This document shows, one piece after another, positions 1 through 64,000 of a stretch of 64,000 nucleotides of DNA. Below the pieces are notes generated by a model. The model had not been told where the DNA came from. It did no database searches and saw only the letters and a list, made by a program, of their open reading frames with translations. Position 1 is the first letter of the stretch, and each line of letters opens with the position of its first letter. Position numbers and translations under genes: made by a program. Source of the stretch: a virus (Duplodnaviria; Heunggongvirae; Uroviricota; Caudoviricetes; Crassvirales); IMG/VR virus record IMGVR_UViG_3300035498_000265, positions 1-64,000 of that record; one strand, written 5' to 3'.

Positions 1-2427
1 TGAGCCTGCAGCAGGTTTTTCACTCTTAGTCTTTTTATTGAAGTTAATTCTATAGTTTTTCCTAGGTCTCTTAGTAGAAGTAGTACCCTGGATTCTTATA
101 GCAGCTTCAGTGTGAGTAAAGTTAAATGCATTACCCTTAGTTGCTGTAGTAGCATAACCTAGGTTAACGTCATTCTCAGGAGCAAAGTAATCTACTCTAA
201 ATGGGCCATAATAAGATTTCTTATCAGAAGACTTATTAAGGTCTTGCAATGTAACCCTAGAAGTTTGAGCATCTGATGGAGATATAATCATAACTCCTTT
301 ACCCATTGCTCTTATCTTCTGAGGAGATACATAGTCATTGTCAGTAGAATCTTGACTAAGAACATTATTCTTATTATAAAGCTCTTCAATGGCTGTAGAA
401 GATTCCTAGTCTATGATATGCTCATCAACACATTGGTCAATGGTTAAAGGCTCATCATAGTACTTAATAGATTTAATATATACGTCAGCGTATGTTGAAT
501 CTATAGTAATAGGTATCTTATTAAGATTAATGAATGATGAAGGAACAGGCGCTATAAATGATAGAATACCATCCAAGTATCCATAGCAAAGACCATTTGT
601 ACTACCTACTGAAGGAGCATTTGGGTCAATAACAAATGTATACTTGTAATAGGTGTCCTGAGCATATTGTGAACCAACTCTAGTTACAATAGATTGAGTT
701 ACTGAGCCATCATCATCTTTATAGTCAGTTACCTCACCAGTGTTAACTCCTACATAGCTAGTAGTAATCTTAAGACCAGTGTCTCTATTATCATTGTTCT
801 ACCAATAGCAAGAGATAATGTCATTCTCTTCAAGAGTAGCATTACTACATTTAAATAGGATTTCAAATGTACAACCATCCCTAGTTACAGGATAATTATT
901 AACTGACTAGAATAGTGGGAAATTAATAATAGCCTTAGCACCATTTTGCAATAGTAAAGCATTATCTACCCAACCATTAGATTGCCAGTTTAATCCCTCA
1001 AACTCTGTAGTAGTATCACCATAACTCCATACTGCAGGATTTACTTCCTCATTGCTCCTACCATCAGCATCTAGGTTTAGTTCTAGACTTTCTGTAGGTA
1101 ATTCAATATTAATGTCACTAGCTAAAGGAGTAATATAGATTGCTCTTATAGTGTCACCAGCATTGAATGTAACCTTCAATTTATTAGAAGACTTAATAGT
1201 TTTACTATAAGTGTATATCTTCCTATTTAAAGTCTAACTAGAAGGTGATGATACAACTGCATTACCATCAGAGTTAAGTTCATCAGTAGTTATAACTGCT
1301 GAAACTGATGAGTCATTTGCATTATAAGCATAGTAGTTAAACTTAAATGTACTAAACTTATAAGCTGAGAATGTAGGAATATTATAAGAGTATTCATCCT
1401 AAATAGAACCAGTAGTATCTTCTACAAGTAATGCTATTACTGTATTAGATGTAGAGGTAAATAAGTCAAAGTAATATGAAGAACTCCTTACTACTGTATC
1501 TCCAGAAGTAGTTTCAGCTACCAACTAGAAATTAGTTGTACCACTAGTTAATGATTGCTGGAACACTCCAGAAGATGATGAACTAGTTATACCTTCAACT
1601 TTATCTACTTCCTTACCATTCTTATAAAGGTAAACAGTCTTACTACCATTACCTTTAACACTATAAGGAATATTAACTAAGCTACTATTACTAGCATTAA
1701 TTAGATTAATAGAAGTGTTTAAAGTAAGTGATAATACTGTAAGATTAACACTACCATACTTAGTAATAACCTTAGTTTGGTTTACACCTTCCTCATCAAC
1801 ATAGCTATAAGTATGTGATACTTCTAGTGATATTACAATGTTAGATGAGCCAGTTATATTCTAAGATATAATAGAGGTCAAATCTACAGATTGACTAGTA
1901 TTACCTACAGCTTGAGTAGACTAGACAGTTCCCAGCGAAGCTGTATAAAAAGCTACTGAAGAACCTTGTCTAGCTATGCTTAAGTTAACACTAGCAAAAC
2001 TATTAGGTATAAGCTCATTTTGATAATCTGCTACTGTAAAACCATAAGACAGTGAAACCTATCCTCCTAGGTTAATAGCTGCACTAGACAGCTATGCAGC
2101 TACAGTTACAAATCTATCATTAGCATCAGCCTTACCAATATTAATATCAGAGGTAACTGTATTACCTGCTGAATTTAGCTGAGTTATAGTTAAAGCCTCA
2201 CTGTTACCCTCAATGCCTGTAACTATTTTACCATTACCATTCTAGAATAACCTAGTAGTTAATTGGTCACTAATTACAGTCTCAGCATCAGTCTAAGAGA
2301 GCTTATCTTGTAACTCATCTTTAATAAACTTCTGAACAGCTTCTCCACTATAGGGTAATCCAGTAGATACATCATTACCCCAGTCTTGAGAATAGTCTGT
2401 TATAGAATTTGTACTAACTTTTGCCAT
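1..2427 (-). CDS. Tail fibre-like Ser/Thr/Asn-rich structural protein; N-terminal part, continues past window start; many in-frame TAG read as sense
   Basis: ATG at 2425-2427 on minus strand; the track fragment 907-1179 is in the same frame; the frame is broken only by TAG; composition typical of phage fibre/receptor-binding proteins. Confidence 0.45.
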
Positions 2428-2607
2428 ATATAATTATATAAGTTTAATTTTTCCAACCTTCGGTATTAGACCATGGGGAGTCATTTTTCCAATACCCAGC
2501 ACCAAAGCAGCTCTTGATAGCTTCCCAAACAAGCTATATACCCTAATATATTTGGGTAATAGCTTTACTCCCAAGGAAGCTAGTTTCAAGTTCTTTTTTA
2601 CCTATAA

Positions 2608-3126
2608 ATAGCATAATCAATCATTTTCTACACAAAGGTATAGAGTATTATCATCTTTATCTTCTAAAGCTTCGTACTCTGCCTCTGTCAATGTAACAAT
2701 AGTTTTACCATTTATTTGTGAGTTAAGCTACTTTGATAGAGTGTCTGCATTGTTAGCAGTAGTCTTAATTTCATTAATATTATCTAGAGCCAAGTTCAAT
2801 CTAGCTGTAGCAGTATTAGCATTATCAGTAGCTGTCTTAGCATCTTCAGTTGCACTCTTAGCTTCCCCTGCAGCATCATTAGCTTCCTAGCTATATTTCT
2901 TAGCAGATTCAGCTGCTTCCTTTGCAGTACTAGCAGCTTCAACAGCAGGCTAAGATATTAATGAAATAGGAACCTTTACTAGTTCACTAGTATTAGTTTT
3001 ATATGAGGGGAGGGAGTCTACGTTATCTAGAGAGCTCACCTCTGCTAACTCATCAATACTAGTTGACTAAGTTGTAATCTCATTGATTACATCTTGTATT
3101 AGTTCTTGCCTTTCATCTGTAGTCAT
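2608..3126 (-). CDS. Ala/Thr-rich coiled-coil virion protein, 172 codons with 5 in-frame TAG
   Basis: Codon-by-codon translation from ATG 3124-3126 to TAA 2608-2610; in-frame TAG codons at 3067, 2950, 2887, 2728 and 2638. Confidence 0.45.
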
Positions 3127-3134
3127 AATTACTA

Positions 3135-4460
3135 AATCTATTCTTTATATTTCTTAGCTATTTCTATGAGAACATCACTATATTCAAATAACTCTTGATA
3201 CTTCTTTTCAAAGGACTTAACTTCATTTACCTTAATAACCATTGATTGTAGTTTAATTTCACCACTATAGTCTAAGGTAAAATCACCAGTACCATTCCAC
3301 AAGAAAGAAGATTTAAATGTATGATAATTTTCATCAGCTTCCAGTGCCTACTCTACTTTATAAATAGGTTTAGAATCATAGCCTTCATCAGACTCATTAT
3401 CTATAGAAACTTTTAAATTACCATCAGTTATAGCCTTATAACTAAAGATTAATGTTACATAGTAAGGCTTAGGCAATTCATCTAAATCAGTAGTAATTTT
3501 TCTTAGATTTTCATTCTTCTAAGTAATATAACCATTAACTAATTTAAGTAGAATTTGACCATCTTCAACTGTAACATAAGCACCTGTTTTCTTAGTAGTC
3601 AACAGGGTCTTATTAGTCATTACAAAGTTGCCTTTAGCCTTAAAATATTTAGCACTATTCTTAGTTAACCAACAGTCCATACTATCAATAAAGTATGGGT
3701 TATTAAGTAGATTCTCATAGCCAAATTCCTATCTAACACTAGCTAAACCAGTATTAATAGTAGCAGCATTTACTGTCACTAATGAGGCTAAATCCCTACC
3801 TTGATTATCTATGAATGTGCCTTTAAAGTAAACATTTTCACCAAAAGCACTCCAAGTATTAGTAGAACTTTGTCCTAGTCTAAAGGTGTAATTTGTATTA
3901 ATATTATCTAGGCTTACATTTACAAATTGAGTTAATACCATAACTCCATTGTATTTGTGAAGCATTAATACTTTTTGCCTTAGTCTATCTTCAGTACTAC
4001 CTACAAGGTATACTGTGTCGTACTTATTAGGGTGAACAGCATCTCTACTTATATAAGCATAATTATCTTTAACATACTCAACCTTGGCATAAGTTCCATT
4101 GAGATTAGAGTCTATGTTAAATCCTATTATATCATTACCTTCAAATATATTATCTTTGAAAGTTATCTTATAATAGTCTTCCTCAGTGGTTACTTCTGTG
4201 ACTTCAGAGTGAGAATTAAGTATTAATAAATCCTCTACCTAAGGGGGACTAAATACTGTGAACTCATCTCCTCTGTAATCATAGATAGTTTCATTCTCTT
4301 CTACATAGACTAACATCCCCTTTCTAAGTTTATCAGGGATTATGCTATCCCTCTCTTCTAGAGTAGAGACTTGCATAAATCCACCCCTTAGATTTAATGA
4401 GTCTAGTAAAGCAAAGTTTGAATTACCACTATGTTTAATTTCACTTATAAACTTAGGCAT
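3135..4460 (-). CDS. Structural (tail?) protein, about 440 codons with in-frame TAGs
   Basis: ATG 4458-4460; track fragments 4239-4460 and 3729-3965 share a frame and are joined only by TAG codons; 3-prime end approximate. Confidence 0.35.
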
Positions 4461-4462
4461 AA

Positions 4463-5197
4463 TTATTTAAATTCAATAGTTAAAGTTCCTAAGCTATTCC
4501 ACTTAGATATATACTAAGTACCTTCAATAGTAGCTCCCTAGTCATTAATCATAGAAGTAACTTCTTCATCTATATTAAAGCTATCTGTAGAGTCTATACC
4601 ATTTATATATATTTTTGAATACTCTAGTGACTTAGGTATAAACACTCTTAGATAGTCTTCATCAGGGACATTTATGTCATAGTTACTAGTGGGATTGATT
4701 GCCTTTTGGCTATTCTCAGAAGTACTGATGTAAATATACTCAATGAAGTTAATAGAAGTAGTGCTAAAACTAGTATTAGTTCCATCTGAAACTTCTATTA
4801 TAAATGTAGTATCTTTATCTATACTTTCTGATATATCATAAGACCTCTTAGTAATGTCAATAGACTCACCATTTAATACTTGGGAAAGTAATAATTTCTT
4901 ATTATAATTCCAAGTGAAATTAAGTTCATCTATCACTGTACCCACTTCATAAGTGCCACTCTATTTTAAATGAAGGTCAACTTCAGGAGTTACATAGATT
5001 AGCTTATCTAGGGCTTCTTTAACTGTAGTTATTGAGGTATCCTCAGAGGTAGTATATTCAACCTCTGGGGATTCCATCTTATTAAATCTCTACCAGGTAT
5101 TATCACCCCAGTATAATAGTTTACCTTTCCAATACCATAAGACTTCATGGTCTAGAGGTTCTTTAGGTGTCTATACTATAGCTCTAAACTTTCTCAT
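4463..5197 (-). CDS. Virion protein of about 244 codons with in-frame TAGs
   Basis: ATG 5195-5197 overlapping the TAA of the upstream gene (TAATG); TAA at 4463-4465; includes track ORF 4538-4945. Confidence 0.4.
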
Positions 5198-7602
5198 TAT
5201 TTAGTCTTATTTGGTTTATTAATTTGCTTTCTTTTTAATTCAGCATCAGTCTTAGCTTTGTCTTTATCAAACTATAGCCTCTGCTTGTCTAGCTTTAGTC
5301 TCTCATCAAACTCTCTTATCTTCTCTAGTAAATTAGCTCTAGACTCTTCAGAGAATTCAGGTTCAGGAGTTTCTTCAGAATTAGCTCCAGCTGATATAGT
5401 AGCAACTAATATCTTAGTCTCATTATCTCTAATGTTCATTTGCTCTTTAAGTTGCATCTCAGCTTCTTTCTATTGAGCCTCCATTTGCATCTATTGCTAT
5501 TGAGCTTCTAATGCTTGTTGTTGAGCCTGCTGCTGTCTTTCAAGAAGCTCCCTTTCATTCTTCTCAACCATCCTTTGTTTTTCAGCGAGAGATGAACTAT
5601 TATAGAGTTTCATAATAGTAGAGAAGTTCAAAGTCTGATTCTATAAAGCAGCTTGAGCAAGCATATCCATCTTCTGTTGAAGTTCTTGAATAGCATTACT
5701 ATTATCAACAACTAAGCCATAATCTGCTTCAGCGAATTCATCCCCATCTATATCCATAATCCTCATAGAATTATCAGATAAGATATATTGGAACTTCTTG
5801 TTATTGCCTCTTAAAGCTATCTTAGCAGTCTCTAAGAAACACTCTAATGCCCTTCTCTTAACATCTTCATGATGAATGAATAGCCACTCTGTAATATGTG
5901 AAGACTGTAAAGTAGCTCTTTCTACACCACCAACAGTTTCTCTATTACTAATCTAACCCTCTCTTTGTTTAGAGATACCTGCTACATCAGACATCTCTGA
6001 CTTAATGAATTCTAGTAAATTAACATCTTGCTGAATTATATTTCCTAGTTCAGCATCTATTACTCCCCTAGACGCATTATTAAGAGCGCCTGCTATCTTA
6101 CCAGTAGCAGCTCCAACGTTACCTTCTTTAAAGCTATCAATTACTGCTAGGTTATTAGTTTTAGCATAGTACATCCACTTCTGAATATCCCAACCAGCAG
6201 GTACTTTAGATAAGTCTAGCTCTAAGATTTTACCCCAGTTTTTAGCTAGTAACTTATTAAGTCTATCATGAACAGTGTCATATAAATAACTATATGGCTT
6301 CATCATGTCTACTAGTGAGAATGGCTTACTATCATTTAGATTATAGATAGAGCCTACTATACCAAAATGACATCTAGAAGGGTTAGCTAGTCTGTTATAC
6401 TGAACTACTCTAGGTCTCATATTAACATAAATGCTATTACCTATCTTAGTCCCTTCCCAAGCTTCATTAATCCATAGAATCTCTTCTTCTTCTCCTAAGT
6501 CCTTATTGATTACATAAGTCTCTGGGTATAGAGTAAATATCTCATCCCCTGTTTCCTAGTCATAGGATTTAACCTTTTTAATCTTTCTCCTAGACTTCCA
6601 GTACATCCTAAGAACTTTCAGATTACCAGCTAGGTCATAAGGAAGAAGAGAACTACTAGTAGAATCTGAGAATAAGCCGTTAGCATCAAAATAAAACCCT
6701 TCTCCTGAAGGTACTCCATTATCTAAAGTAACTGGGTCTATAAAACCATATCTCTCGTCTATATTATCCATTGAGTCTTTAGCAGGACTATCTAAGCTAT
6801 TAGGAGCTTTCTCTATATACTCCCTATCCTTAGCTGTTAGTACATCATAGTAAGTATCTATGATTTTACCAGGACTCCAGTAGTCCTCTATTATAACTAA
6901 ATCAGCATCTTCTATCCTATTGCTAAAGCCTGATTTAAATATTCTAATGTTAAGAGGATTAACCCTCTCAATAACTGGTTCACCACCAACTATATCACAT
7001 TGATAAATCTCTTCACCAATAGCCATAGCATCCATGAAACCCTAGTTAAAAATATAAGGAATATTTAGTTCTTTAACATAATGATTAAGTAGAGCATTAG
7101 CCCTAACTTCCCTCATATCCTACCACTCATATAAGAAGTAGTCATTCATTCTATCTAGTTCAGCTTCAAACTCATCTTCACTCTAAGTTGTATCTTGAAT
7201 GAGCTATTGCATCCTAGCTAGAATTTCTTTCTTCTTAGCTTCCTCTATCTCTGATATAGCATTAGGATTAGTTACCACTACTCTATAGTCAAATACTCTC
7301 TTTGATTCCTCACCTCTGAGTACATTTAATTTAGAGTTCATAATAGGATAGTGCTAAATCTATTCAGGTATAAAATCAGCCTCTAAGTTCTCTGGGTTAA
7401 GAACTAATTGTAAGTCCTCCATGTGTAACTTACCGTTAAGTAAGTCATAGTTTATTTTCTTATGAAGAACAGATTTTCTTACTAAACTATGATTGAAGAA
7501 TGTCTTACCCTAGGCCCAATCTAAGTGCCTTTTTCTCCAGACTTTATTCTTCTTACTAAAAGGAAGCTACTGGGGAGGTAAATTTGTAATATCGTTTCCC
7601 AT
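5197..7602 (-). CDS. Portal protein candidate, about 800 codons with at least 12 in-frame TAG
   Basis: Track fragments 7035, 6420 and 5457 are all in one frame; hand translation from ATG about 7600-7602 to TAA 5197-5199 crosses only TAG; size, position next to terminase and Q-rich coiled-coil C-terminus fit a portal. Confidence 0.45.
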
Positions 7603-9954: not shown

Positions 9955-10269
9955 ACCATAACTACCTCCTAATATAAGGTTAAAGTCACTAGTTCTTATA
10001 CTCCTAAATAGCCTAATAACTAAGTCTTCTTCTATAGACTTAACTACTTTAGCTTCCTCCTCAGGAGATGTAACTCTATCTACTCTAGACACAGTTATAT
10101 AAGGAGCTTTATATTTAGTTGATTTATCTACATACCATATAGTATATATAAATCTTTTAAATGCATTCATTCTAGTGTTCTCTACAACCTTTTGTAGTAC
10201 AAATACTGCGTAGGGGTTAGACTCCCTAGTATATAATTCTAGTGCTTCTACAACTGCTCTTATATCCAT
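9922..10269 (-). CDS. Hypothetical 115-aa protein (TGA stop, no internal TAG); possible small terminase or DNA-binding partner
   Basis: Track ORF; ATG 10267-10269 lies 2 nt after the upstream TAA; overlaps the start of the terminase gene. Confidence 0.4.
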   Translation of the reverse strand: MDIRAVVEALELYTRESNPYAVFVLQKVVENTRMNAFKRFIYTIWYVDKSTKYKAPYITVSRVDRVTSPEEEAKVVKSIEEDLVIRLFRSIRTSDFNLILGGSYGDNEPISNTNN

Positions 10270-10271
10270 AA

Positions 10272-10811
10272 TTAAATCTCAAATCCGTCTTCAAATATTG
10301 TTTTTTCTCCCTGTCCTCTCATTTTACCTTGATTCCTAATCTCAGCATTAATAGCTCTTTCAGCCTCATCTAGGTTCTTAACTAGTTCAGGTATTTGCTT
10401 AATGAGAGCTCCTATTTCTTTTAGTTCTTTAACCTCTAAGCTGTCAAACTCCTAAGCTCTTAGTCTCTTCCTATATTTATCTACCATCCACCTAGTATCT
10501 TCTAGTAGTAATGCTGATGCTGGTTTAAAGGAAGCATAGAACTCCATAGCTTCTTTTACTAGCTTATCTGGTTTCCAATCTGCTGGCAATCCCTCTGCCT
10601 CTCTGATAGCTTCTGCTCTACTAGTAGCATCAGTTAAATACTGATAGTCACTCCTAGGGTCTTCCATAAAATAAATAAATCCTAGTTCCATTATAGCTCT
10701 ATCTTTACTCTGAGATTTATCCCTATTCCATATAGACCTAAAAGGCTTTAATGCAAAAGCTTCCTCAGATATAATTACCTTATAAGATTCATATTTAAAT
10801 AGTTTAATCAT
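10272..10811 (-). CDS. Hypothetical protein of about 179 codons with one in-frame TAG
   Basis: Track ORF 10452-10811 continues through TAG at 10452 to TAA 10272-10274. Confidence 0.4.
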
Positions 10812-10857
10812 ATTCCTATAAAATAAAAGGCTGAGAAGTTATCCCAGCCTATATAAG

Positions 10858-11922: not shown

Positions 11923-11927
11923 AGTTG

Positions 11928-12188: not shown

Positions 12189-12200
12189 TGTCAAAATTTT

Positions 12201-12629: not shown

Positions 12630-12783
12630 AATAAATAAGTATAAATTCGTGACCTTCTTTAGTGAGAGTTACTATATCATCTCTTTTAATGTCAAGTTCC
12701 CTAGCTATATTAACAATAGCCCTAATAGTAGGAGCTGTTACAGCTGTAATTATCTTGCCACTTTTAATTGTACTTTCTCCCAT
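12618..12783 (-). CDS. Small protein of about 54 aa, AbrB/swapped-hairpin-like (weak)
   Basis: ATG 12781-12783 (MGESTIKSGKIITAV...); overlaps the downstream gene start. Confidence 0.25.
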
Positions 12784-55000: not shown

Positions 55001-58000
55001 GTTCCCATTGAGTCTAATAAGCCCTCTGCAGAGTATATTACTTTCTATGCTAGAGGTGGTTCTTTCTATAAGGATGACTTAGTTAATGACTTCCTAAGTG
55101 TATTTAATCAGGAGCTTAGTAGAATTAAAACTGTTAAACTAAGGAAGAAACTTAGAGACAGTAAAATTGCTGAGCTTCAAAAAAGATTAGATGCTGAGGA
55201 AATTACTAAGCAACAGTTTGAAGCTATCAAATATAATATCTTAGAAGAAGCTATTACTAACTTTGATACTAGAGGTGAACAATTTGTTTTCCTAGATTTC
55301 TTGAACTCAGAACTACCTAAAGAAGGTTTTGCTGGTACAGAGCTAGGTAAACTTATTGATAAATCTTCTAGGGGAGAAAAAATAGACAAAAATAAGTTAG
55401 CTGGACTAGCCGCAGAAGCCATTAGAACCTCTATTCAAGCTAGAGTTGATAGCATGATTGACAAGTTTAAAGCTAATGGTGTATTTGAGCAATGTAAGAC
55501 AATCAATAAAGTAGAAGGCACTGACAAAGTAGTTCAAAATAAACTAGAACTATTCCTATGGAATGATGCCTTTGCTTCAACTCAAATAATGCAGTTATTA
55601 ATATCAGACCCAGCCCTTTTAAAGAGCACAGATGATGTTCAAAAGAGGTTTGCACAAGTTCATGCTTCAGGGAATAGAGCTAATCTAGCTGCTACTACCT
55701 TTAAAGAGGATGGTGGCATTCCTGTTACTGATGGTGTACACAGAAGTATAACCCTCAGAGATATTGAGAAGTTTAATGCTAATGTGATTGATAACTTAAC
55801 TGCTGCACTAGACCAAAGAATAGCTAAGGCTGAAAATGATGCTGAAAGAATTTCTTGGGAGGCATTTAAAGAGAGATTAGTTGGTGAGGAGGGCCTTTAC
55901 AGAAAAAAGACTAACTTAGCTGACGCTCAAGCTTATAGCTGCCCTACTTCTTATAGGAAGAAAGCTCTTATGTTTGGCTTATGGTCAAAGGAAGCTGAAG
56001 AAGCTTATAAGAGAATTAAGAGTGGTAATTACACTTTCTCTGATGTAAGTATAGCTTTTCAACCATTCAAACCCTTCTTATTTGGCAATAGTATTGAAGA
56101 TACTGGAGTTGATGCAGAAGGAACTATCTCTAAAATGAGAGTATCTGTTCAGAATAAAAATGCTGAATGTCTACTAGTAATGGCAGATGCTATTATCGGT
56201 GACAGTGATACTGGTAAACCAAATCTTCTAAGGGCATTATTTAATGTTATGGAAGATAGTCATAAGGAGAAAGATGAAAATGGTAATCCTATAGAAGGAA
56301 CTTATAGACAAGATGGTATTGACACTGTGAACTTTGAGTCTGCTGTTAAATCAGGAGGCCAAGGTAGAATTGACACTCAAGCCTATGCTGGTGGTAAACA
56401 GCTTTTAGATGGCACTATGTTAGGTCATGAAAAAGCCTTTGAAGACCAGCTAAGGTCAATTATATATACAACTAAGACTATTAATGTAAAGAATGCAGAA
56501 GGCCAATCAGAAGAAAAAACAGTAACTGTTTATAATAAAACCTCAGTAAAGCATATTGGCTTTGAGAATTATTGTATGCAGCAAGCTGTGCCCGAGCACT
56601 TTCTAGACCATAGTCAGTTGGAAGGTTCTCAACAAAGAGCTCTTATCCCGTCTGACTTAGCTACTGTAGATGCTGCTGGTAAAGAAGTTCTCTATAAAAT
56701 AAATGAGACTACTAGCATGACAGCAGATGAGCTAAGAGCTAGATATGACCAACTTCATGCAGATAATATTCAGAAAGGTATAGATGAGATTAACACCCTC
56801 TTTAACCTAAATAACTCCACTGCTCAACAAAGGAAAGAGGCTCTTAGTAAGTTACTAGTAGACCAATTCCTAGCTGATGGTAGATATTCAGGTGATATGC
56901 TTTATATGGTAACTCTGAATGAAGAAACTGGTGATTTCCCTGTATCATTGGAAGACCCAATGATTAGAAACCAAGTAGAGCAAGCTATTAATTCTATTAT
57001 TAAAAGTAGAGTTAATAAACTTAAGATGAAAGGTGGCCCACTTGTTCAAATGTCTAACTTTGGGATGTCTAAAGAACTTAAGATTAAATTCAAAAGTAAA
57101 GATGGACAACCACTCAAAGAGAGAGCAGAATTTAATTCTGATGAAGAGTATAAAAGCTACCTTGAAGAAAATCAAGCTGGCATTGACCATTATGAAGTTA
57201 TAGCCCCTGCTTATACTGAAGGAATCTTTCAACAATTTGCAGATAATAACGGTAATATCAGTGTAGAAGCTCTAGAACTATTAGAGCCTGACCTATTGAA
57301 GATGATTGGATATAGAATTCCAACTGAAGCTAAGTATAGTATTGCACCACTTAAGATTGTAGGATTTGCTCCTAAGGAAATGGGTGATGTTATTATACTT
57401 CCTGCAGAAATTACTCTTATAACAGGTTCAGACTTTGATGTTGATAAAGAATATTGCATGAGAAAAACACTAGATATTGTACCCAAAATATTTTTATCGA
57501 AAGAAAATCAGAAATTAAGCCCAGAAGAGCAAGCTAACATTAGGTCTTCAATAGCTGCTAGAAAGCTAGCTAAAGAACCTAGTGTAAAGGAACTTAGCAA
57601 AGATATGATAGCATTAGCTGATAGATTTGTTAATGACCCTTATAATAAGAAGCTCTGGTTAAGTGAAGGCCTGACTGAGGAACAATATAAAGACATACTT
57701 AAGAGCTATGTTAATATAATGTTTGAAGTTAAACCTGCTAAAGGTGTAGACGCTAACAATAATGAGATATTTGATATGTCTTATAGTGTCTTAACTAATG
57801 AAACCAATGTAGCTAAACTACTTAAGCCAGGTGGTTTTGAAGAGCACAAACATATTGCTTATGCAGTAAGTGCTTATAGACTTCCTGAGATAAGAGAGAA
57901 AGGAATTTCCTTTGACACTCTACTTAAGATGGATACTGGCAAACTGGGCAAATTAATAGAAAAATCAGACAAGAACTTAATGTACTTTGATACTCAATTA

Positions 58001-60013
58001 GAGTATTATGGTAACAATAATTCAGCTAGTAGTCTACTAGGTATATCAGCTGTAAATAGTGTAGCTCATGCTATACTAGTCAGTGATAATATTGGGTTAG
58101 ACCTAACAGGAACATTCATTCCTACTATAGCTGGAAATGCTTTTAGCTCAAAAATGCAACTAGATAAATCATTAGCCAATGATAATGCTTCTATAGCTGA
58201 AACTTTAGGTAGCTGTGTAGCAGCATCAGCGGATGCAGCTAAAGACCCTGTATTAAACTTTATGAATCTAAATCCTCAAACTTTTAATGTTTATACAACA
58301 TTGATAAGATTAGGTATTCCTAACTCAGTAGCAACTTTATTGATGTCTTCTAAGGTACTAGGTGACGCTGTAGTTGAAGCTAACGCCAGAACACTTAAAG
58401 GTGAATGGTCAACTCCAGAGTCTATCCTTAGAGAGAAAATGTCTGATGATGAATTAAAAGACTTAGGCTATGATATACAGTCTCCTATCTTCACTGAACC
58501 AATCACCAGAGATGAGTTAATAAAAGGGCTAGTTGATGATGACTTAAATGTATCCTTAAAAATCTCAAAAGCTTTAATTGCTTTGTTTGATGTGTCTAGG
58601 AAAGTTAGATTAGCTGACCAAGTAACTAGGTATAATTCAATATCTAGTGCTGTAGGCCCATCTACTCTAGACAATTATATCTTCCAAGAGAAACTGAAGG
58701 AACTAGATAATAGCTCTTCTCTTGTAGATATGAACAATCCTGAGGGAGACCACCTGAGAACAAAGCAGTTGTTAGAAAGACATAAAATGTTATCAAAGTT
58801 TAGTGAAGCCTATAAACTAGCAGACAGTGTGTTAGTGGATGATATGCCTTTAACTAGTGCATTCTTAGATAGTATTAAAACTATCTATGCTACGCCGTTT
58901 GTAGCAGGTCTTGAGTTAAAGTTTGGACTACCAGATGTAGTTAAAGGTGATAGGGCTGTTATGGGTAAATTGAGAGACTTCTTTACTGCTTGGACTGCAG
59001 TTAAGAATGGTCTAGTTAATTATGATGAGCTTGGCTATTTAAGTAAGCAGTTCCCAAGAACACTTACTGCTAAAAAGAAAGAACACAGTGACAACTATTT
59101 AGCTCAAAACTTATATTTAAATATAGACAATAGGTCAGGATTTCCCATTGTAGCTATGAATATTTCTATGATTGAAAAAGAATCTAGAGATAAATTAGCT
59201 GCATCTTGGGCGGACTTATACACTAAGGACGAAAAATTTGCTATGGATTTATTTAAATATAGCTTCTTTAGAGGTGGATTAGGATTTAGTCCTAAGACAT
59301 TCATGAGTGTACTTCCCATCCAAATGAAAGTTAAGATGAAAGGATACTTAGACCTCTTTAAGAAAGTTGAGACATTGAGTGAGACTGAAGTTAACTTAAT
59401 GTATAAGCAGTTCATTAGTAATAACTATATGGACAATAAGGTAGCTCCAGTTATGTCAGGAATTAGCCCTGATAAAAATGGTAGAATAACAATAAGTAAA
59501 GACAATAAGAAAGCCAATTCCTTTAAGGGTGTAACTTTCTTTAAGACTATTACTAAGCCAAATACTGAATTTGGTGAACCTGTTATTAGACTATATCAAT
59601 GTGTAGGTGGTTATGAAGAAGGCCCTGTTTATAGGATGTATGAAGAAATTCCTAAACTGGGTGCTGAAGGTAACTTCTTAGAACTATCTACCGAAGAAAT
59701 AGAACAAAGTGAGTTTGATGTTAGGTTTGATTAGGATGATTCAGGTGAATCATTCTTACCACCTAGTCCTGATGATATTCCTGTTGATAGAACCCCAACT
59801 GCTATTGAGGCTAAGAGAATAATGAACGATGTTATGACATCTTAGCAACAACAAGCAGTTAGGGAAGAAATTGCCAAGAGAGAAGGTGCTATAAAGGAAG
59901 CTTATATCGCTAGATGCATGGCAAGAGCTGAATCTATTATACTAGAGAAAGGCTTTAAAATATCAAACTCAGCAAAAGACTTAGCTGAGGAAATAATAAA
60001 AAAACTTTGTTAA
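52019..60013 (+). CDS. Giant late protein, 2664 codons (10 in-frame TAG only in the first ~340 and last ~90 codons); zincin HExxH near N-terminus, DFDVD near residue 1804; candidate virion-packaged RNA polymerase or ejected cargo protein
   Basis: Frame opens after TAA 52001-52003; first ATG 52019; HEIIHE at 52826-52843; DFDVD at 57431-57445; track ORF 53027-59734 is the TAG-free core; TAA at 60011-60013. Confidence 0.45.
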
Positions 60014-60014
60014 T

Positions 60015-63000
60015 ATGGCAAAAAGTACAGGCTGTAAAAGAGCTCCTGAAATAAATGGAGAACTAAGTTAGCTATATCTGGATTTATTCGATATGCTAAA
60101 AAATAAATATAAATTAGATGCAGCTGCTGCTAGACAGGTAACTAATGTTATCTATGTCTAGTATGCATCTAATGACTAGTTAAAAGCATCACTAGATAAC
60201 CTAAATAAAGCAAGAAATAGTCAGGACTAGCATAGTGCTGATGATGTCTTTGATGCTATAGGAGGTGATGAACTAGTAAAATATGCAGCTATTGACGGTA
60301 TGAATGAACTTAACTCTCTCAGTATATCTGAGGGAGTTAAGCTCGATACTGTTCATAATGTGGAGTTTACTAATTGGGAAGACGCTTATACTAAAGCATA
60401 GGATATAAATACAGCGCATCCTACTTTAAGTGCGTATGTAATTCAATAGAATGGTAAATACATAGTTAAGATTAACAATATGACTAGCTTAAATATGGCT
60501 GATAGGGTAACTACAGACATAGAAAATCAATAGATGCAACTATTAAAGAATGCATTAGCTAGTGTTAATCTAAACATAGATGATATTACCTTTGCACAAG
60601 ATACCTTCTTTGGAAGAAGATATAATAACTTAGTAAGTTGGATTAGGAATATACCTAAGACTGACCCTAAGTATTTAATGAAGGATGATTTAAAGATGCT
60701 TATTTCTCTCTTTCAAAGAGAGCAGATAGTAGATAGAATCATAACTAAATTCGGAGGAATTGATGACCTAGTAGATGCTTACTATGGGTGGTATAGAGGT
60801 ACTTATACAGCTACACCTACTACTGAAACCCAATTAAAAGCAGCTATGGATTTAATGTAGAGCTTCAATGGTTTAGATGTTGATGCTCTATATACAAACT
60901 CTAAAGACCTAACAGACCAAATAAAGAATAATAGTGTAGATTATAATGCTAGACTATTATGGGAAAAGCTTAATGATGCATTTAAGTTAGATAGTGTGTC
61001 AATATAGACTTCTATAGATAGACTTAATACTATAAGAGAAGTAATAGCTTAGACTATTAAATCATTAGGTGTTGAAGCTAATGCTCTAAGAGGAGATAGC
61101 TAGAAAGCTGTTAGGGATGATTTATTAAATAGAATTGAAGCTCTAGATAAAGACTTAGAGCAAAGACAATATACCTCAGGACTAGCTGAGTTCTTAACTA
61201 ATGCTGCTACTAGATTATAGGATATGTTACATGAATTAGTAGTACCTATATCATAGGGCGCAGATATGAATGATATACATCAAAGAGGCTCTGCTTTAAG
61301 AAGAGCTGCTCAGTATATGCAAGTCTATAAACCTATTATAGAGAGTATTTCTAAACTAGATGGCTTAGAGAGAGATATTGATATTACTGACTAGGATGTA
61401 TAGAGACTACAAGCAGAAGCAGCTAAGTTAAATAATACTATAGTAGAGATTAACTAGGCTATTAAAAATAGTATAGATATGTGGGCTAAGTAGGCATTAT
61501 CTTTGATGTTAGTAGAAAATTCAGAGATAACTATTGATGATGTCATGGACAACTTAAAGGTAGATGCTACTTGGTTTGATAGAATGTACAATGTTACTAA
61601 AGTTAGTCAAATACCCACTGCAGTTATAGGTAACTATATCTAGGAAACTAGAAGATAGAGAACTATGAGATTAGCTCATATAGCTGATAGAATAGGTGCT
61701 ATATTGTAGACTAAAGACCCTGTTACAGGTAAGAGCTCTAATATGAAGAATAGGAATACATCATTTATGTATGAGCTAGTAGACTCTGAGTTTGGTGGTG
61801 GTAAAAAGGAGTACAAAATTATAAGTGAGTACGATTTTAATAAGTACTATGAGCTAAAGAGAAAATAGGCTGGAAGGTTAAAAAAGAGAGGTGTAACAGG
61901 GGCTGCATTCAATCTAGCTATGGAAGCTTGGGTTAATAATAACACAGATACTATTGTAGTAGACTAGGTTACTAATAGAACAGAAAGAGTTCCTAAAGTA
62001 AAGAAAGCACAGAACCCTCTTGATAAACTGTCAGAGACTGAAAGGGCTATATATGATTAGTTCTTAGACTTAAAAGGAGAGATAGATAGTATGCTTCCAG
62101 AGTTCGCTAGAAGCAGGTATAACCCTCCCCAATTAAGAAAGAATGCTCTAGATTAGCTAGGCTAGGGTAAAGTTGGTAAGGCTGTTGCTGAGAAATATAA
62201 ATCTAACTTTAGTGTTAGAGAGGATGAAGAAGGGTTTGGTTAGATTAAGGAAACTGATGATGGGGAAGTAATATCAACTTACACAGATATGACTGGTAGT
62301 ACTGATATAGTCCCAGTTAATTATGTACAGAAGCTTAAGAATCAAGATGAGCTATTATTAAACTTCTCAGAGGGATTACTTCACTTAGCATCCTCAGCTA
62401 TTAACTATGATATTATTAAGGGTATAACTGATACAGTAGAAGTTCTTAGTGACTATGTAGTAGATAAAGTACATCCTATGTAGAATGGGCTAGAGCTAGC
62501 TCAAACATTCACTTATGGAACTAAACTATTCTATGAAGTAGGTAAAAGAGGTAAACATGATATTTCTAATGTAGAAAGAATACTACAAGATTAGAAAAAG
62601 AGATTACTCTATAATGATACTACTGCAGGTAGGTCAGTCAAAGTAACAAAGGGCTTAAACTTTATTAGAAAAGTAACTTCAGTATAGGCTCTTAGTTTTA
62701 ACCTATTTGGTGCTATGAATAATGCATTAGAGGGCTATAGAAAGAACTTAGAGGAAGCTATAACATATGGTACTGATACCTTTGACCTTGTTGACCTTGA
62801 GTGGGCTCATGCAGTTATCTTTGGTCTCCACCCACTTGAAGGGGTAGGTCATATAAAGGATTTCTTAACAGGTAAAAGAACTCATAAAGGCAGCTTAATA
62901 GTTAATAGGTTTGACCCTAAGAAAGAGAAATACCATGAGATAGCTAATAGAAAATATAGGACTAATTTCTTTAGGACTTTAGTATCTAAGGATTTAACTA

Positions 63001-64000
63001 TGATTATGTATGGCTTTGGTGAAACTCTTAATAACTTACCTATTATATATGCTATGTTGCACCATGTTAAGGTAACTATAGATGGTAAGAAAGGCACACT
63101 ATATGATGCTCTTGAAGTAAGGTAGAGAGCAGATGGAACTAGTGAATTAGCACTTAAGCCAAAAGTAATTAATATCAAAACTGGAAAGCATGTCACAGAT
63201 GCCGACTTAGATGAGTTAGCTAAGAAGATGAATGAAGTCTCTGAGACTAACCACGGTGGTATGTCTGATGAAGCTAAAGGTGAAATAGCTTCAACTCTAC
63301 TAGGTATGATGACTCTACAACTTAGGAGATGGATGATTGGTGTCTATTCTAAGTACTTTAGAGGTGAATACTTTGATGCATCTACTGGTAAAAAAAGAGA
63401 GGGTGCTTGGAAGGGTGCTTATGATTTTCTAAGTATGATAGCAAAAGATATGAAAGGTATGCCTTGGAGCTTAGACTGGGGACATGATATGAGGACTTTC
63501 AGTTAGGAATGTATAAAGAATTGGCATAACTTTAAGCCTCATCAAAGGAAAGCAGCTGTAAGCTTTGCAACTACAACGGTTTTAATGACAGTATTAAGCT
63601 GGCTAGTAGATGGCATTGTTAGAAGTTACTACCCCTCAGATAAGGATGAAATATGGTTCAAAGTAGTATTTTATCTATTAGCAAGACAGAGAATGGATGT
63701 TCAGTCTACTGTACCTGACTTAAAGCATCTAGAGAGAGTTGGATAGATTGGTACAAGTATGATTGAGATTATGGATAAACCGTTTGCATCTTACTCTACT
63801 ATTGAGATGGCTACTTATTGGGTTACAGCTCTCCCAGAACAAGGTGAAGAAGTTAAATCTGGCCCTCATAAAGGAGAGGATAAATACCTGAGGGGATTGA
63901 GTAAGCATTATGTGAAACCACTAGAGCTATATTATAGACTAGAAGGATTGAAAGACACAGATGAGCTCATAGAAAGCTTAGGTGGACTAAAAGGTAAGTT
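60015..64000 (+). CDS. Second giant late protein (at least 1328 codons, continues past window end), about 35 in-frame TAG
   Basis: ATG 60015 lies 1 nt after the TAA of the previous gene; track fragments 60534, 62289, 62715 and 63228 are all in this frame, separated only by TAG. Confidence 0.45.

What the first reader, a model, noticed from the sequence alone, without database searches (positions are those of the whole stretch)
1..64000. Amber (TAG) codon reassignment confined to late/virion gene modules
Every long minus-strand gene in 1-12783 (tail fibre-like, portal, large terminase and others) is interrupted only by TAG and ends at TAA or TGA. The same is true on the plus strand for 52019-64000 and for the minus-strand HExxH gene at 15783-16094. 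About 60 early/middle genes (16597-51856) contain no sense TAG. This is the signature of a stop-codon-recoded phage (TAG read as an amino acid late in infection); a cognate suppressor tRNA is present. TAG density reaches about 1 per 40 codons in the 60015+ gene.
Basis: partly seen in the sequence, partly recalled or inferred. Interest (0 to 1): 0.9.

Follow-up and report, generated by a model that had tools for sequence, protein, structure and literature searches.

The report
Late-gene TAG-to-glutamine recoding, two-anticodon-arm suppressor tRNA
This is a crAss-like gut phage that reads the stop codon TAG as glutamine in its virion genes, which is a known phenomenon, but its suppressor tRNA carries an extra arm that displays a normal glutamine anticodon, an apparently undescribed feature that may explain how such tRNAs get charged.

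Summary
In 1-12800 (minus strand) and 51900-64000 (plus strand), long ORFs contain in-frame TAG but never TAA or TGA. Long-ORF coverage rises from 0.46 to 0.95 and from 0.69 to 0.99 when TAG is read as sense. About 53 replication genes (16.6-51.9 kb) have no internal TAG.

TAG means glutamine. It aligns mostly with Q in five standard-code relatives, including seven all-Q columns.

The window is a crAss-like phage (Steigviridae-like; IAS virus is nearest). Late-gene TAG-to-Gln recoding in this group is already published (Yutin 2021, Borges 2021, Peters 2022).

Two refinements: four early or middle genes use TAG as a true stop, and a 2,245-codon core of the giant RNA-polymerase ORF is TAG-free.

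The unexpected part is the suppressor tRNA (13242-13330, minus strand, 89 nt). It has a tRNA-Gln body, a CUA anticodon, and an extra arm whose 7-nt loop, CUUUGAA, mimics a Gln anticodon loop.

Pattern scans of viral contigs show this is general:
- Long CUA tRNAs carry YUGA.
- Long UCA tRNAs carry CUCCAAA (Trp).
- Long UAU tRNAs carry GAU (Ile).
- Long ordinary tRNA-Gln(UUG) controls do not carry it.

I infer, but have not tested, that the arm is a pseudo-anticodon that recruits the host synthetase.

The parts
1..2433 (-). Large virion or tail-fibre-like gene that runs off the window start; 12 in-frame TAG, no TAA or TGA.
   Evidence: Matches PHROG 14959 (unknown function) at E = 1e-65.
2617..5200 (-). 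Three virion or tail-like genes (2617-3144, 3129-4466, 4463-5200) with 4, 6 and 5 in-frame TAG.
5197..7602 (-). Portal gene with 15 in-frame TAG.
   Evidence: PHROG 6547 at E = 4e-133. 71% amino-acid identity to the IAS virus portal. TAG columns are mostly Q in relatives.
7677..9959 (-). Large terminase gene with 16 in-frame TAG after the start codon.
   Evidence: PHROG 6681 at E = 6.5e-103. 72% identity to IAS TerL. Alignment.
9922..12668 (-). Small genes at the head of the leftward block, syntenic with IAS gp087-gp094 (GroES-like, HU-like and regulators); 0-3 TAG each.
12877..15699 (-). Array of 17 tRNA genes, co-directional with and upstream of the recoded leftward block.
   Evidence: ARAGORN and Rfam RF00005. 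ARAGORN places the IAS virus tRNA array in the same arrangement.
13242..13330 (-). Amber suppressor tRNA(CUA), 89 nt. The acceptor stem and D arm are of the phage tRNA-Gln type (U1-A72, G2-C71, G10, A73).
   Evidence: (59.7 bits). The 5' half is identical to, and syntenic with (Leu-Sup-Thr-Gly), the 73-nt suppressor of the nearest relatives L605 and L606.
13289..13305 (-). Arm 1 of the suppressor: a 5-bp stem and the loop CUCUAAA. The anticodon CUA lies at 13296-13298.
   Evidence: plus manual parsing of the sequence.
13273..13287 (-). Arm 2 (extra arm) of the suppressor: a 3-4 bp stem and the 7-nt loop CUUUGAA, which has the form of a tRNA-Gln anticodon loop. The pseudo-anticodon UUG lies at 13279-13281. 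Five unpaired nucleotides follow before the T stem.
   Evidence: Specificity matrix and controls.
15774..16112 (-). Small HExxH gene with 4 in-frame TAG, upstream of the tRNA array on the same strand.
   Evidence: PHROG 1233 at E = 3e-13.
16597..51856 (+). Early and middle (replication and nucleotide-metabolism) block of about 53 genes with no internal TAG. Stop codons: TAA 32, TGA 17, TAG 4.
   Evidence: Pfam hits: AAA, SNF2, DnaB, Toprim, UDG, NrdD, dUTPase, PolA, ThyX.
46475..46975 (+). Aspartyl-protease-like gene that ends in TAG exactly where the IAS homologue ends; a back-up TAA lies 7 codons later. This is one example of TAG used as a true stop. The others are 20477-20794, 36750-38102 and 50921-51856.
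52019..60013 (+). Giant ORF of 2,670 codons containing the virion RNA polymerase. It has an N-terminal HExxH region. TAG occurs at 8 sites in the first 332 codons and at 2 sites in the last 94 codons.
   Evidence: Residues 928-2474 align with IAS gp056 RNA polymerase at E = 1e-50.
53000..59731 (+). TAG-free core of the RNA-polymerase ORF: 2,244 codons with 84 Gln codons, all CAA or CAG.
   Evidence: This remains unexplained.
60015..64000 (+). Second giant gene of the transcription block, a homologue of IAS gp057. It runs off the window end and has 32 in-frame TAG.

Best explanation
The window is about two thirds of a crAss-like phage genome (Crassvirales, close to Steigviridae/Asinivirinae) that uses two readings of TAG.

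**Two readings of TAG.**
- In the rightward replication block, TAG is avoided inside genes and occasionally used as a stop, always with a TAA or TGA 4-11 codons downstream.
- In the packaging, virion and transcription-block genes, TAG is a frequent glutamine codon, making up 39-53% of all Gln codons.

**How it is decoded.**
- Decoding depends on a phage tRNA with anticodon CUA. It sits in the tRNA array at the head of the leftward recoded block.
- This tRNA descends from the lineage's tRNA-Gln-type suppressor.
- Once it accumulates, ribosomes read through TAG, the virion genes become translatable, and the few TAG-terminated early proteins gain short tails.

**Inferred steps.**
- The timing (standard code early, recoded late) is inferred from gene content.
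- The mechanism of charging is also inferred. Bacterial GlnRS relies on anticodon bases 34-36, so a CUA anticodon is a poor substrate.
- This tRNA carries a second hairpin between the anticodon arm and the T arm. Its 7-nt loop, C-U-U-U-G-A-A, reproduces a tRNA-Gln anticodon loop (U33, UUG, A37).
- I propose the second hairpin acts as a pseudo-anticodon that host GlnRS recognises. It might be reached directly, or through an alternative fold in which arm 2 takes the place of the anticodon arm.
- Under this model, one arm reads the codon and the other is read by the synthetase.
For: **Shown: recoding.**
- Frame-specific stop counts and ORF coverage.
- Homology of the interrupted ORFs to portal, TerL and RNAP.
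- TAG aligns with Q, including seven all-Q columns across five standard-code genera.
- The Gln codon budget fits.
- TAG stops in early genes coincide with the ends of IAS homologues.
- A CUA tRNA is present, with a tRNA-Gln-type body.
- Published precedent: PMC7886860, bioRxiv 10.1101/2021.08.26.457843, and proteomics in PMC9523058.

**Shown: the extra arm.** The scans specified only the anticodon loop, a long gap and the T loop, and the sets are non-redundant.

| Set | n | Result |
|---|---|---|
| Long CUA tRNAs | 50 | 38 have YUGA in the extra region, 0 have CCAA |
| Long UCA tRNAs | 16 | 15 have CCAA, typically 5 bp plus loop CUCCAAA; 0 have YUGA |
| Long UAU tRNAs | 66 | 55 have GAU[U/A] |
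| Long ordinary tRNA-Gln(UUG), control | 24 | 1 has YUGA; the loops are generic tetraloops |

- Fisher p values range from 3e-9 to 4e-27.
- For the CUA set, the loop consensus is C/U32, U33 (28 of 36), C/U34, U35 and G36 (36 of 36), A37 (35 of 36).
- The stem pairs covary.
- The 11 class-II-bodied CUA tRNAs lack the motif.
- Carrier loci gain long ORFs under the matching code: TAG for the CUA + YUGA set and TGA for the UCA + CCA set.
- The type is rare in cellular genomes. Among the first 120 rows of the cellular-genome scan, only 1 tRNA had the arm.
- How phage suppressors get charged is stated as an open question in the Borges preprint.
Against: **No direct evidence.**
- There is no expression, proteomic or aminoacylation evidence for this genome.
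- Whether the mature tRNA keeps the extra arm is unknown.

**The arm is not required for recoding.**
- Other TAG-recoded relatives of this phage carry ordinary 72-73-nt CUA tRNAs. L652 and L677 have 11 and 14 TAG in their portal genes.
- The arm can therefore be at most an enhancer.

**Structural doubts.**
- Arm 2 in the CUA class is short (2-4 bp).
- In a canonical L-shaped tRNA, a variable arm does not point to where a synthetase's anticodon-binding domain sits. A direct read-out would need an unproven conformational change.
- The tRNA departs from the E. coli GlnRS identity set at two positions: it has C3-G70 and A73.

**Other caveats.**
- Extra arms with unrelated loops exist on many ordinary phage tRNAs, so the arm as such may have another primary role.
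- The TAG-free RNA-polymerase core does not fit a simple rule that all late genes are recoded.
Confidence: 0.85

Rival explanations
1. The extra arm of the suppressor has no role in charging. It is either an evolutionary relic (an old anticodon arm left after a second arm was inserted or duplicated) or a general stabilising or anti-nuclease arm of the kind many phage tRNAs carry. On this view the suppressor is charged by GlnRS simply because CUA tRNAs are tolerated, as with E. coli supE.
For: - Related recoded phages manage with 72-73-nt CUA tRNAs.
- Ordinary phage tRNA-Gln, Cys, Pro, Thr and Lys can carry extra arms with GNRA-type loops.
- Arm 2 is only 2-4 bp in the CUA class.
- Amber suppressors are known to be glutaminylated in E. 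coli (cited in the Borges preprint).
Against: - The loop sequence tracks the arm-1 anticodon in three independent classes, and does not do so in the UUG control.
- It is conserved (U35 and G36 in 36 of 36, A37 in 35 of 36) while the acceptor, anticodon and arm-2 stems diverge and covary.
- Two class-II-bodied UCA tRNAs also carry a CCA loop, which suggests convergence.
- Arm-1 and arm-2 stems are unrelated in sequence, so this is not a recent duplication.
Confidence: 0.3
2. TAG encodes an amino acid other than glutamine. The long extra arm and A73 would make the tRNA a class II type charged by LeuRS, TyrRS or SerRS. ARAGORN labels it 'Pyl'.
For: - The tRNA is 89 nt with a 21-nt variable region and discriminator A73.
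- Global alignment scores slightly higher against a tRNA-Leu than against tRNA-Gln, because of length.
Against: - TAG columns in portal and TerL show Q 66, E 20, K 16, and no L, Y or W. S appears only 5 times out of 155 cells. Seven columns are Q in all five relatives.
- The Gln codon budget fits.
- The acceptor stem and D arm are nearly identical to the phage tRNA-Gln(UUG) of IAS virus and to the syntenic short suppressor of L605.
- The geometry is not class II, with 5 unpaired nucleotides 3' of the arm rather than 1.
- No Pyl machinery was found among the annotated genes.
- Proteomics in crAss-like phages found Q (PMC9523058).
Confidence: 0.03
3. The TAG-interrupted ORFs are pseudogenes or assembly or sequencing artefacts of a defective phage.
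For: Under table 11 the late genes are fragmented.
Against: - Only TAG, never TAA or TGA, occurs in frame over more than 7,000 codons, while all three stops abound out of frame.
- There are no frameshifts, and identity to relatives runs across TAG sites at 70% or more.
- A cognate tRNA is present.
- Relatives show the same pattern.
Confidence: 0.01
4. The host itself reads TAG as sense, or supplies the suppressor, so the pattern reflects the host's code rather than a phage-driven switch.
For: None from the window. Some recoded phages lack a detectable suppressor (PMC7886860).
Against: - The phage encodes its own CUA tRNA.
- Early and middle genes avoid internal TAG entirely, and four of them terminate at TAG at homologue-supported positions.
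- Relatives of this lineage infect Bacteroides, which uses the standard code (record annotation). This is inference.
Confidence: 0.02

Closest known systems
Code-15 (TAG to Gln) recoded crAss-like phages (Yutin et al. 2021, PMC7886860; Borges et al. preprint 10.1101/2021.08.26.457843; Peters et al. 2022, PMC9523058)
   Same: - In-frame TAG is confined to structural and late genes.
- Early genes are compatible with the standard code.
- The phage encodes a CUA tRNA.
- The reassignment is to Gln.
- The code switches at short phylogenetic distance within the beta/IAS group.
   Different: - Nothing differs at the level of the recoding itself.
- This genome adds documented TAG stops in early genes and a TAG-free RNA-polymerase core.
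- Those papers do not describe the architecture of the suppressor tRNA (checked by text search).
Classical amber suppressors derived from tRNA-Gln or tRNA-Trp in E. coli (supE, su7); from my own knowledge of the tRNA identity literature
   Same: - The body is of tRNA-Gln type with anticodon CUA.
- Charging is presumably by GlnRS, which tolerates but disfavours A36.
   Different: - Those are 75-76-nt class I tRNAs with a 4-5-nt variable loop.
- This one has a second hairpin with a Gln anticodon loop.
[quoted passage not shown]
   Same: - An amber-suppressor tRNA has a variable arm remodelled into a copy of the cognate anticodon arm, so that a synthetase's anticodon-binding domain can be recruited.
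- The paper reports that this enhances aminoacylation in vivo.
   Different: - That system is synthetic. It uses an allo-tRNA chassis and HisRS fused to an extra anticodon-binding domain through a linker.
- Here the arm is natural, occurs on ordinary 7/5 tRNAs, and would have to work with unmodified host GlnRS, TrpRS or IleRS.
Class II tRNAs (Ser, Leu, bacterial Tyr) and allo-tRNAs (PMC5389517)
   Same: A long extra arm between the anticodon arm and the T arm, with a total length of 85-95 nt.
   Different: - Class II arms are joined by about 1 nt on each side, carry arbitrary loops, and sit on bodies with a GAGYGG-type D loop.
- In the class II systems I know of, the arm is recognised by shape rather than by loop sequence (own knowledge).
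- Here the 3' linker is 4-7 nt, the body is of Gln or Trp type, and the loop sequence is the conserved part.
'Code change module' of Jade phages: suppressor tRNA + TrpRS + RF1 (Borges et al.)
   Same: A phage-encoded solution to the problem of charging and using a suppressor before the late genes are translated.
   Different: - That solution supplies a dedicated synthetase and a release factor.
- No aaRS or RF is encoded in the 64 kb seen here.
- The proposed solution here lies within the tRNA itself.
Theta (HDV-like) ribozymes next to phage suppressor tRNAs (PMC10879173)
   Same: An RNA-level accessory linked to the tRNA-Sup genes of recoded gut phages.
   Different: - Those are separate self-cleaving elements downstream of the tRNA.
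- The Rfam gathering scan of 12700-25000 found only tRNAs and a tmRNA. I do not know whether a theta-ribozyme model is in that library.

Membership tests
Stop-codon-recoded phage, genetic code 15 limited to late genes | Long ORFs with homologues are interrupted only by TAG and close at TAA or TGA. | tested here: met
   In-frame TAA and TGA counts are 0 and TAG counts are 5-32 per gene.
Stop-codon-recoded phage, genetic code 15 limited to late genes | TAG aligns with glutamine in standard-code homologues. | tested here: met
   Q fills 66 of 155 cells, 7 of 31 sites are Q in all five genera, and the remainder are mostly E, K and R.
Stop-codon-recoded phage, genetic code 15 limited to late genes | A phage-encoded tRNA with anticodon CUA. 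| tested here: met
   ARAGORN; Rfam tRNA at 59.7 bits.
Stop-codon-recoded phage, genetic code 15 limited to late genes | Recoding is confined to structural, lysis and late genes, with early genes readable in the standard code. | tested here: met
   Exceptions: the 2,245-codon RNAP core has no TAG, and the lysis and capsid genes lie outside the window.
Stop-codon-recoded phage, genetic code 15 limited to late genes | Read-through peptides with Gln at TAG; temporal switch during infection. | not testable with these tools
   Only precedent exists, from other crAss-like phages (PMC9523058).
Crassvirales (crAss-like phages) | Signature portal, TerL and giant RNAP-containing transcription block in crAss-like gene order. 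| tested here: met
   - Megablast to IAS virus and cr128, cr112, cr106 and cr116.
- PHROGs 6547 and 6681.
- Synteny with IAS.
- RNAP homology.
- The major capsid protein is not in the window.
tRNA-Gln as substrate of bacterial GlnRS (E. coli identity set; own knowledge) | Weak 1-72 pair (U1-A72), G2-C71 and G10. | tested here: met
   Sequence parsing. The same features occur in the phage tRNA-Gln(UUG) of relatives.
tRNA-Gln as substrate of bacterial GlnRS (E. coli identity set; own knowledge) | G3-C70 and discriminator G73. | tested here: not met
   The tRNA has C3-G70 and A73. The bona fide tRNA-Gln(UUG) genes of related phages also end in ..CAAC with A73, so the Bacteroides rule may differ from the E. 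coli rule.
tRNA-Gln as substrate of bacterial GlnRS (E. coli identity set; own knowledge) | Anticodon Y34-U35-G36 with A37. | tested here: not met
   The decoding arm has C-U-A-A (G36 replaced by A). The full Y-U-G-A motif is instead present in the loop of the extra arm.
Class II tRNA (Ser/Leu/Tyr) | A long variable arm on a class II body (GAGYGG-type D loop, about 1-nt linkers). | tested here: not met
   The length criterion is met (21 nt), but the D arm is GGUGUAAUGGUAGCAC and the 3' linker is 5 nt. Class-II-bodied CUA tRNAs in the same scan look different.
tRNA with pseudo-anticodon arm (engineered precedent, PMC7590224) | The variable-arm loop reproduces the cognate anticodon loop. | tested here: met
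   The window loop is CUUUGAA.
tRNA with pseudo-anticodon arm (engineered precedent, PMC7590224) | The arm increases aminoacylation by the cognate synthetase. | not testable with these tools
   This needs aminoacylation kinetics or suppression assays.

The most novel reading that the evidence does not exclude
Phage tRNAs that must carry an anticodon the host synthetase does not accept solve the identity problem with a second anticodon-like stem-loop in the variable region. That second loop displays the cognate anticodon.

| Decoding anticodon | Codon read | Second loop |
|---|---|---|
| CUA | TAG | YUG (Gln) |
| UCA | TGA | CCA (Trp) |
| UAU | AUA | GAU (Ile) |

This would be a natural tRNA in which the codon-reading anticodon and the synthetase-reading anticodon are physically separate. 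The window's suppressor would be one member of a widespread, phage-enriched class. Nine of my ten full-text searches bore on this feature, and none found a description of it.
Probability: 0.5. Interest if true: 0.9.

Novelty: new variant of a known kind. Interest (0 to 1): 0.62.

Why it matters
**The recoding itself.** It is a textbook-in-the-making case and matters mainly for correct annotation. With table 11, half of the virion module is lost.

**The suppressor tRNA.**
- How phage suppressor tRNAs are charged by host enzymes that normally read the anticodon is an explicitly open question in the field.
- A built-in pseudo-anticodon would be a simple and testable answer.
- It might help explain why Gln and Trp are the reassignments seen in phages.
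- It would extend to a sense codon (AUA, Ile).
- It would give a sequence rule for predicting the amino acid carried by unusual phage tRNAs.
- It would provide a natural template for orthogonal tRNA design, a route so far explored only by engineering.

Tried and rejected
- **Single-sequence folding.** The MFE fold of the suppressor did not reproduce a cloverleaf (z = -1.6), so I parsed it by hand and by comparison.
- **Similarity to tRNA-Leu.** The higher alignment score against tRNA-Leu was rejected as a length and register artefact once the acceptor stem and D arm were compared and synteny with L605 was found.
- **Suppressor versus deposited phage genomes.** blastn gave only a partial tRNA-Trp hit.
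- **Recent acquisition of the RNAP core.** Megablast of 52000-64000 found nothing, so recent acquisition of the TAG-free RNAP core from a standard-code phage could be neither supported nor excluded. GC and GC3 of the core resemble the flanks.
- **Transcription units.** The sigma-70 and terminator scan of 12000-17000 was no better than shuffles for promoters, and its terminator hits were mostly tRNA arms. No transcription-unit claim is made.
- **tmRNA.** I considered a link between the tmRNA and recoding. I rejected it because standard-code relatives have the same gene and its tag ORF ends in TAA.
- **IAS virus as partly recoded.** X residues in my translation suggested this, but a direct codon count found no in-frame TAG in any of the IAS CDS I checked; I attributed the X residues to ambiguous bases without checking the sequence.
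- **Synthetase or release factor.** I looked for a phage synthetase or release factor among the larger genes and found none.
- **Literature.** Ten full-text searches were run. Nine bore on the extra arm or suppressor charging, and one established the recoding precedent. Only the engineered pseudo-anticodon turned up. Subscription-only papers are not covered.

Full report
**1. The observation**

The window has 34.7% G+C. When only TAA and TGA count as stops, seven large ORFs appear, with in-frame TAG counts as follows:

| ORF | Strand | In-frame TAG |
|---|---|---|
| 1-2433 | minus | 12 |
| 3129-4466 | minus | 6 |
| 4463-5200 | minus | 5 |
| 5197-7617 | minus | 15 |
| 7677-9995 | minus | 17 |
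| 52004-60013 | plus | 10 |
| 60000-64000 | plus | 32 |

- None of these reading frames contains TAA or TGA. The two other frames of the same DNA carry tens to hundreds of all three triplets. Chance and general TAG enrichment are therefore excluded.
- Coverage by ORFs of at least 100 codons rises from 0.46 to 0.95 in 1-12800 and from 0.69 to 0.99 in 51901-64000 when TAG is sense. It barely changes (0.83 to 0.87) in 16501-51900. Making TGA sense gives no such gain.
- The small HExxH gene at 15774-16112 (minus strand) has four TAGs.
- A tRNA with anticodon CUA lies at 13242-13330 on the minus strand.

- Some small genes at 9.9-12.7 kb have no TAG.
- The middle block holds about 53 called genes, not 60.
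- The TAGs of the 2,670-codon ORF are all in its first 332 and last 94 codons.

**2. What the sequence is**

- Megablast of 1-12800 hits only crAss-like phages of Steigviridae/Asinivirinae. IAS virus is best, at 74% nucleotide identity over TerL and portal.
- The interrupted ORFs match the crAss-type portal (PHROG 6547, E = 4e-133) and large terminase (PHROG 6681, E = 6.5e-103).
- Gene order matches IAS virus. A tRNA array comes first, then small regulators, HU and GroES-like genes, then TerL, portal and tail genes. On the other side lies the giant RNA-polymerase transcription block.
- The rightward block 16.6-51.9 kb is the replication and nucleotide-metabolism module. Pfam finds AAA ATPase, SNF2 and DnaB helicases, primase, UDG, NrdD, dUTPase, PolA and ThyX.
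- IAS virus itself has no in-frame TAG in any gene and even ends its portal gene with TAG. It is therefore a standard-code comparator.

**3. Which amino acid**

- Against IAS virus alone, TAG sites align with Q 17 times, K 6, R 6 and E 2.
- Against portal and TerL of five standard-code genera (IAS, cr128_1, cr112_1, cr106_1, cr116_1), the 31 TAG sites align with Q in 66 of 155 cells. E (20) and K (16) follow.
- Seven sites are Q in all five relatives. L, Y and W never occur, and S occurs five times.
- The window's own CAA and CAG codons show a similar exchange pattern: Q 0.63, E 0.11, A 0.07 and K 0.05.
- CAA + CAG + TAG sums to 41-45 per 1000 codons in the recoded genes, against 37 in the TAG-free RNA-polymerase core. 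TAG makes up 39-53% of these codons.

TAG therefore means glutamine here. This agrees with the published prediction and with proteomic evidence for crAss-like phages (PMC7886860; PMC9523058).

**4. TAG is also a stop in this genome**

- Of the roughly 53 plus-strand genes in the middle block, 32 end in TAA, 17 in TGA and 4 in TAG.
- Two of the TAG-terminated genes end at the position where the IAS homologue ends, or within one residue of it. These are the aspartyl-protease-like gene 46475-46975 and thyX 50921-51856.
- Each TAG stop is followed by a TAA or TGA 4-11 codons later.
- The phage thus uses TAG in two senses, separated by gene module. This fits the published model of standard code early and TAG-to-Gln late (Borges et al. 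preprint).
- The timing is inferred from gene content. Nothing here measures it.

**5. An exception inside the recoded block**

- The 2,670-codon ORF (52019-60013) contains an N-terminal HExxH region. Residues 928-2474 align with the IAS virion RNA polymerase gp056.
- Its central 2,244 codons have 84 Gln codons and no TAG, although the flanking parts of the same ORF and the next gene use TAG for about half of their Gln codons.
- At a TAG fraction of 0.4-0.5 this cannot be chance.
- The composition of the core is like that of the flanks, and no close relative was found by megablast.
- A standard-code reading from an internal ATG (codon 342) to the TAG at codon 2577 would give a 2,235-residue protein, comparable to IAS gp056 (2,159 residues).
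- One possibility is that the polymerase core must be translatable before the suppressor is available. I could not test this, and it remains unexplained.

**6. The suppressor tRNA**

The gene is 89 nt and parses as follows:
- a 7-bp acceptor stem (U1-A72, G2-C71, C3-G70);
- D arm GUGU/AAUGGUA/GCAC;
- arm 1, GCGGA-CUCUAAA-UCCGU, with anticodon CUA;
- then 21 nt, then a normal T arm, then discriminator A73.

Origin:
- The acceptor stem and D arm are nearly identical to the tRNA-Gln(UUG) of IAS virus.
- The first 25 nt match those of the 73-nt CUA tRNA of the two nearest relatives in IMG/VR (L605, L606) apart from one extra T in their D loop. That tRNA sits in the same gene order, Leu(UAG)-Sup-Thr-Gly.
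- The suppressor is therefore of tRNA-Gln descent, and in this genome it has gained an insertion.
- The 21 nt form a 3-4 bp stem with the 7-nt loop C-U-U-U-G-A-A, followed by five unpaired nucleotides. The loop has the form of a tRNA-Gln anticodon loop (U33, UUG, A37).
- The first 17 nt of this region are identical to those of suppressors on unrelated 160-196-kb viral contigs (L053, L063, L091). The arm may have been acquired by exchange between phage tRNA genes.

**7. The arm is a general, specific feature**

I scanned IMG/VR with patterns that fix only the arm-1 loop, a 24-34-nt gap and the T loop, so nothing about the extra region was specified. All sets below are non-redundant.

| Set | n | Result |
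|---|---|---|
| Long CUA tRNAs | 50 | 38 have YUGA, none CCAA |
| Long UCA tRNAs | 16 | 15 have CCAA, none YUGA |
| Long UAU tRNAs | 66 | 55 have GAU[U/A] |
| Long tRNA-Gln(UUG), control | 24 | 1 has YUGA |

- *CUA set.* The 12 exceptions are 11 tRNAs with class II bodies and GNRA-like loops, plus one with CUGC. In 36 tRNAs a 2-5 bp stem closes a 7-nt loop centred on YUG. U33 occurs in 28, U35 and G36 in 36, and A37 in 35.
Two of these tRNAs have class II bodies, which suggests convergence.
- *UAU set.* The typical form is GCGC-CAGAUUA-GCGC. GAU is the anticodon of the major tRNA-Ile (own knowledge).
- *Control.* The extra arms of ordinary tRNA-Gln(UUG) end in generic tetraloops such as UUCG, GAAA and GUAA.
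- *Statistics.* The matrix is diagonal, with Fisher p values between 3e-9 and 4e-27. Stem pairs next to the loop covary: C-G, G-C and U-A in the CUA class, and all five pairs in the UCA class.
- *Genomic context.* Loci that carry CUA + YUGA tRNAs gain long ORFs with TAG as sense (0.43 to 0.68, against 0.51 with TGA). Loci with UCA + CCA tRNAs gain with TGA as sense (0.41 to 0.59, against 0.47 with TAG).
- *Cellular genomes.* The same CUA pattern in 185,579 cellular genomes gave, within the first 120 rows, six long CUA tRNAs. Only one has the arm, and it sits on a 15.8-kb MAG contig.

**8. Interpretation of the arm**

- From my own knowledge of the tRNA identity literature, GlnRS, TrpRS and IleRS all use anticodon bases as major identity elements.
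- In all three classes, the decoding anticodon differs from the cognate one by a single base: CUA versus CUG, UCA versus CCA, and UAU versus GAU. The cognate loop reappears in the extra arm.
- The simplest reading is that the extra arm is a pseudo-anticodon that restores recognition by the host synthetase.
- The unusual 4-7-nt linker between arm 2 and the T stem matches the length of a class I variable loop, whereas class II tRNAs have about 1 nt there. This is compatible with an alternative fold in which arm 2 occupies the anticodon-arm position while the tRNA is being charged. That idea is speculation.
- An engineered counterpart exists. Mukai (PMC7590224) placed a pseudo-anticodon arm in the V arm of amber-suppressor allo-tRNAs and reported enhanced histidylation by HisRS chimeras.
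- Nine of my ten full-text searches targeted this feature or suppressor charging. Text searches of the main recoding papers were also run. None found a description of a natural case.
- The Borges preprint lists the charging of suppressors as an open question.
- The library lacks most subscription journals, so prior publication cannot be excluded.

**9. Limits**

- The arm is not necessary for recoding. Among 80 relatives found with the portal protein, 13 have TAG in the portal gene. Every CUA tRNA found in those loci is 72-73 nt long.
- Arm 2 is short in the CUA class.
- A canonical variable arm does not point at the anticodon-binding site of a synthetase.
- Many ordinary phage tRNAs carry extra arms for unknown reasons.
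- Whether the arm survives in the mature tRNA is unknown.
- I put the recoding explanation at about 0.95, and the pseudo-anticodon function at about 0.5-0.6.

**10. Verdict**

- As a phenomenon the recoding is already known. This is a new member of the TAG-recoded beta/IAS-like crAss group, and it would merit a low score on its own.
- The case gains interest from its suppressor, which belongs to a phage-enriched class of tRNAs with two anticodon-like arms. That class appears to be undescribed, and it makes the charging problem of phage suppressors directly testable.

Noticed in passing
window 53000-59731 (+): The 2,244-codon core of the giant RNA-polymerase ORF has 84 Gln codons and no TAG, although the same ORF's first 332 and last 94 codons and the next gene use TAG for about half of their Gln codons. 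A standard-code product from ATG codon 342 to the TAG at codon 2577 would be about the size of the IAS RNAP. This is unexplained.
   Followed up: partly
window 20477-20794, 36750-38102, 46475-46975, 50921-51856 (+): Four early or middle genes end in TAG, each with a back-up TAA or TGA 4-11 codons downstream. Two end where the IAS homologues end. TAG therefore has two meanings in one genome.
   Followed up: yes
window 21057-21394 (+): A phage-encoded tmRNA (Rfam RF00023, 73.7 bits; tag ADTYTTAYDMAA; the tag ORF ends in TAA). Homologous SsrA genes occur in the standard-code crAss-like phage cr106_1 and in Kehishuvirus 'tikkala', so it is a lineage feature and is not tied to recoding.
   Followed up: partly
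L247-L365 (e.g. L286, L348, L283); also L026 6110-6201 and L106 5960-6051: Dozens of 88-96-nt phage tRNA-Ile(UAU) genes carry an extra arm whose loop reads CAGAUUA or CUAGAUU, so it contains the GAU anticodon of the major tRNA-Ile. The window's own tRNA-Ile(UAU) (14492-14565) is of normal length.
   Followed up: partly
L219, L227; L486-L604 (e.g. L603, L518, L572): Many phage tRNAs for class I amino acids (Gln, Cys, Pro, Thr, Lys) carry extra arms capped by generic tetraloops (GAGA, GAAA, UUCG). The reason is unknown. This shows that an extra arm alone is not evidence of a pseudo-anticodon.
   Followed up: no
window 13242-13330 versus L605 1276-1348 and L053, L063, L091: The suppressor looks mosaic. 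Its first 25 nt and its gene neighbourhood match the 73-nt suppressor of the nearest relatives (apart from one extra T in their D loop). The first 17 nt of its extra region are identical to those of suppressors on unrelated 160-196-kb viral contigs.
   Followed up: partly
L605-L684 (80 portal relatives): Recoding is patchy in this lineage. 67 relatives have no TAG in the portal gene, and many of them carry tRNA-Gln(UUG). 13 have 1-14 TAG. L605 and L606, the closest relatives, have only 2 TAG plus a short CUA tRNA, which looks like incipient recoding of the kind Yutin et al. described for OFRY01000050.
   Followed up: partly
window 33786-39513 (+): A cluster of ATP-grasp-like, phiEco32-type COOH-NH2 ligase, class II glutamine amidotransferase and Amidoligase_2 genes sits in the replication block. 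Its function here is unknown, and I found no link to tRNA charging.
   Followed up: no
L001 2463-4861 (IAS virus NC_049978): The RefSeq record annotates the IAS tRNA array on the minus strand, but ARAGORN finds all 18 tRNAs on the plus strand, co-directional with the late genes as in the window. The annotated strand is probably wrong.
   Followed up: no
window 52019-53000 (+) and 15774-16112 (-): Two separate HExxH (zincin-like) motifs lie in TAG-rich sequence. One is in the N-terminal region of the RNAP ORF (..VHEIIHEIT..) and the other is in the small gene upstream of the tRNA array (..LLHELIHAIL..).
   Followed up: no
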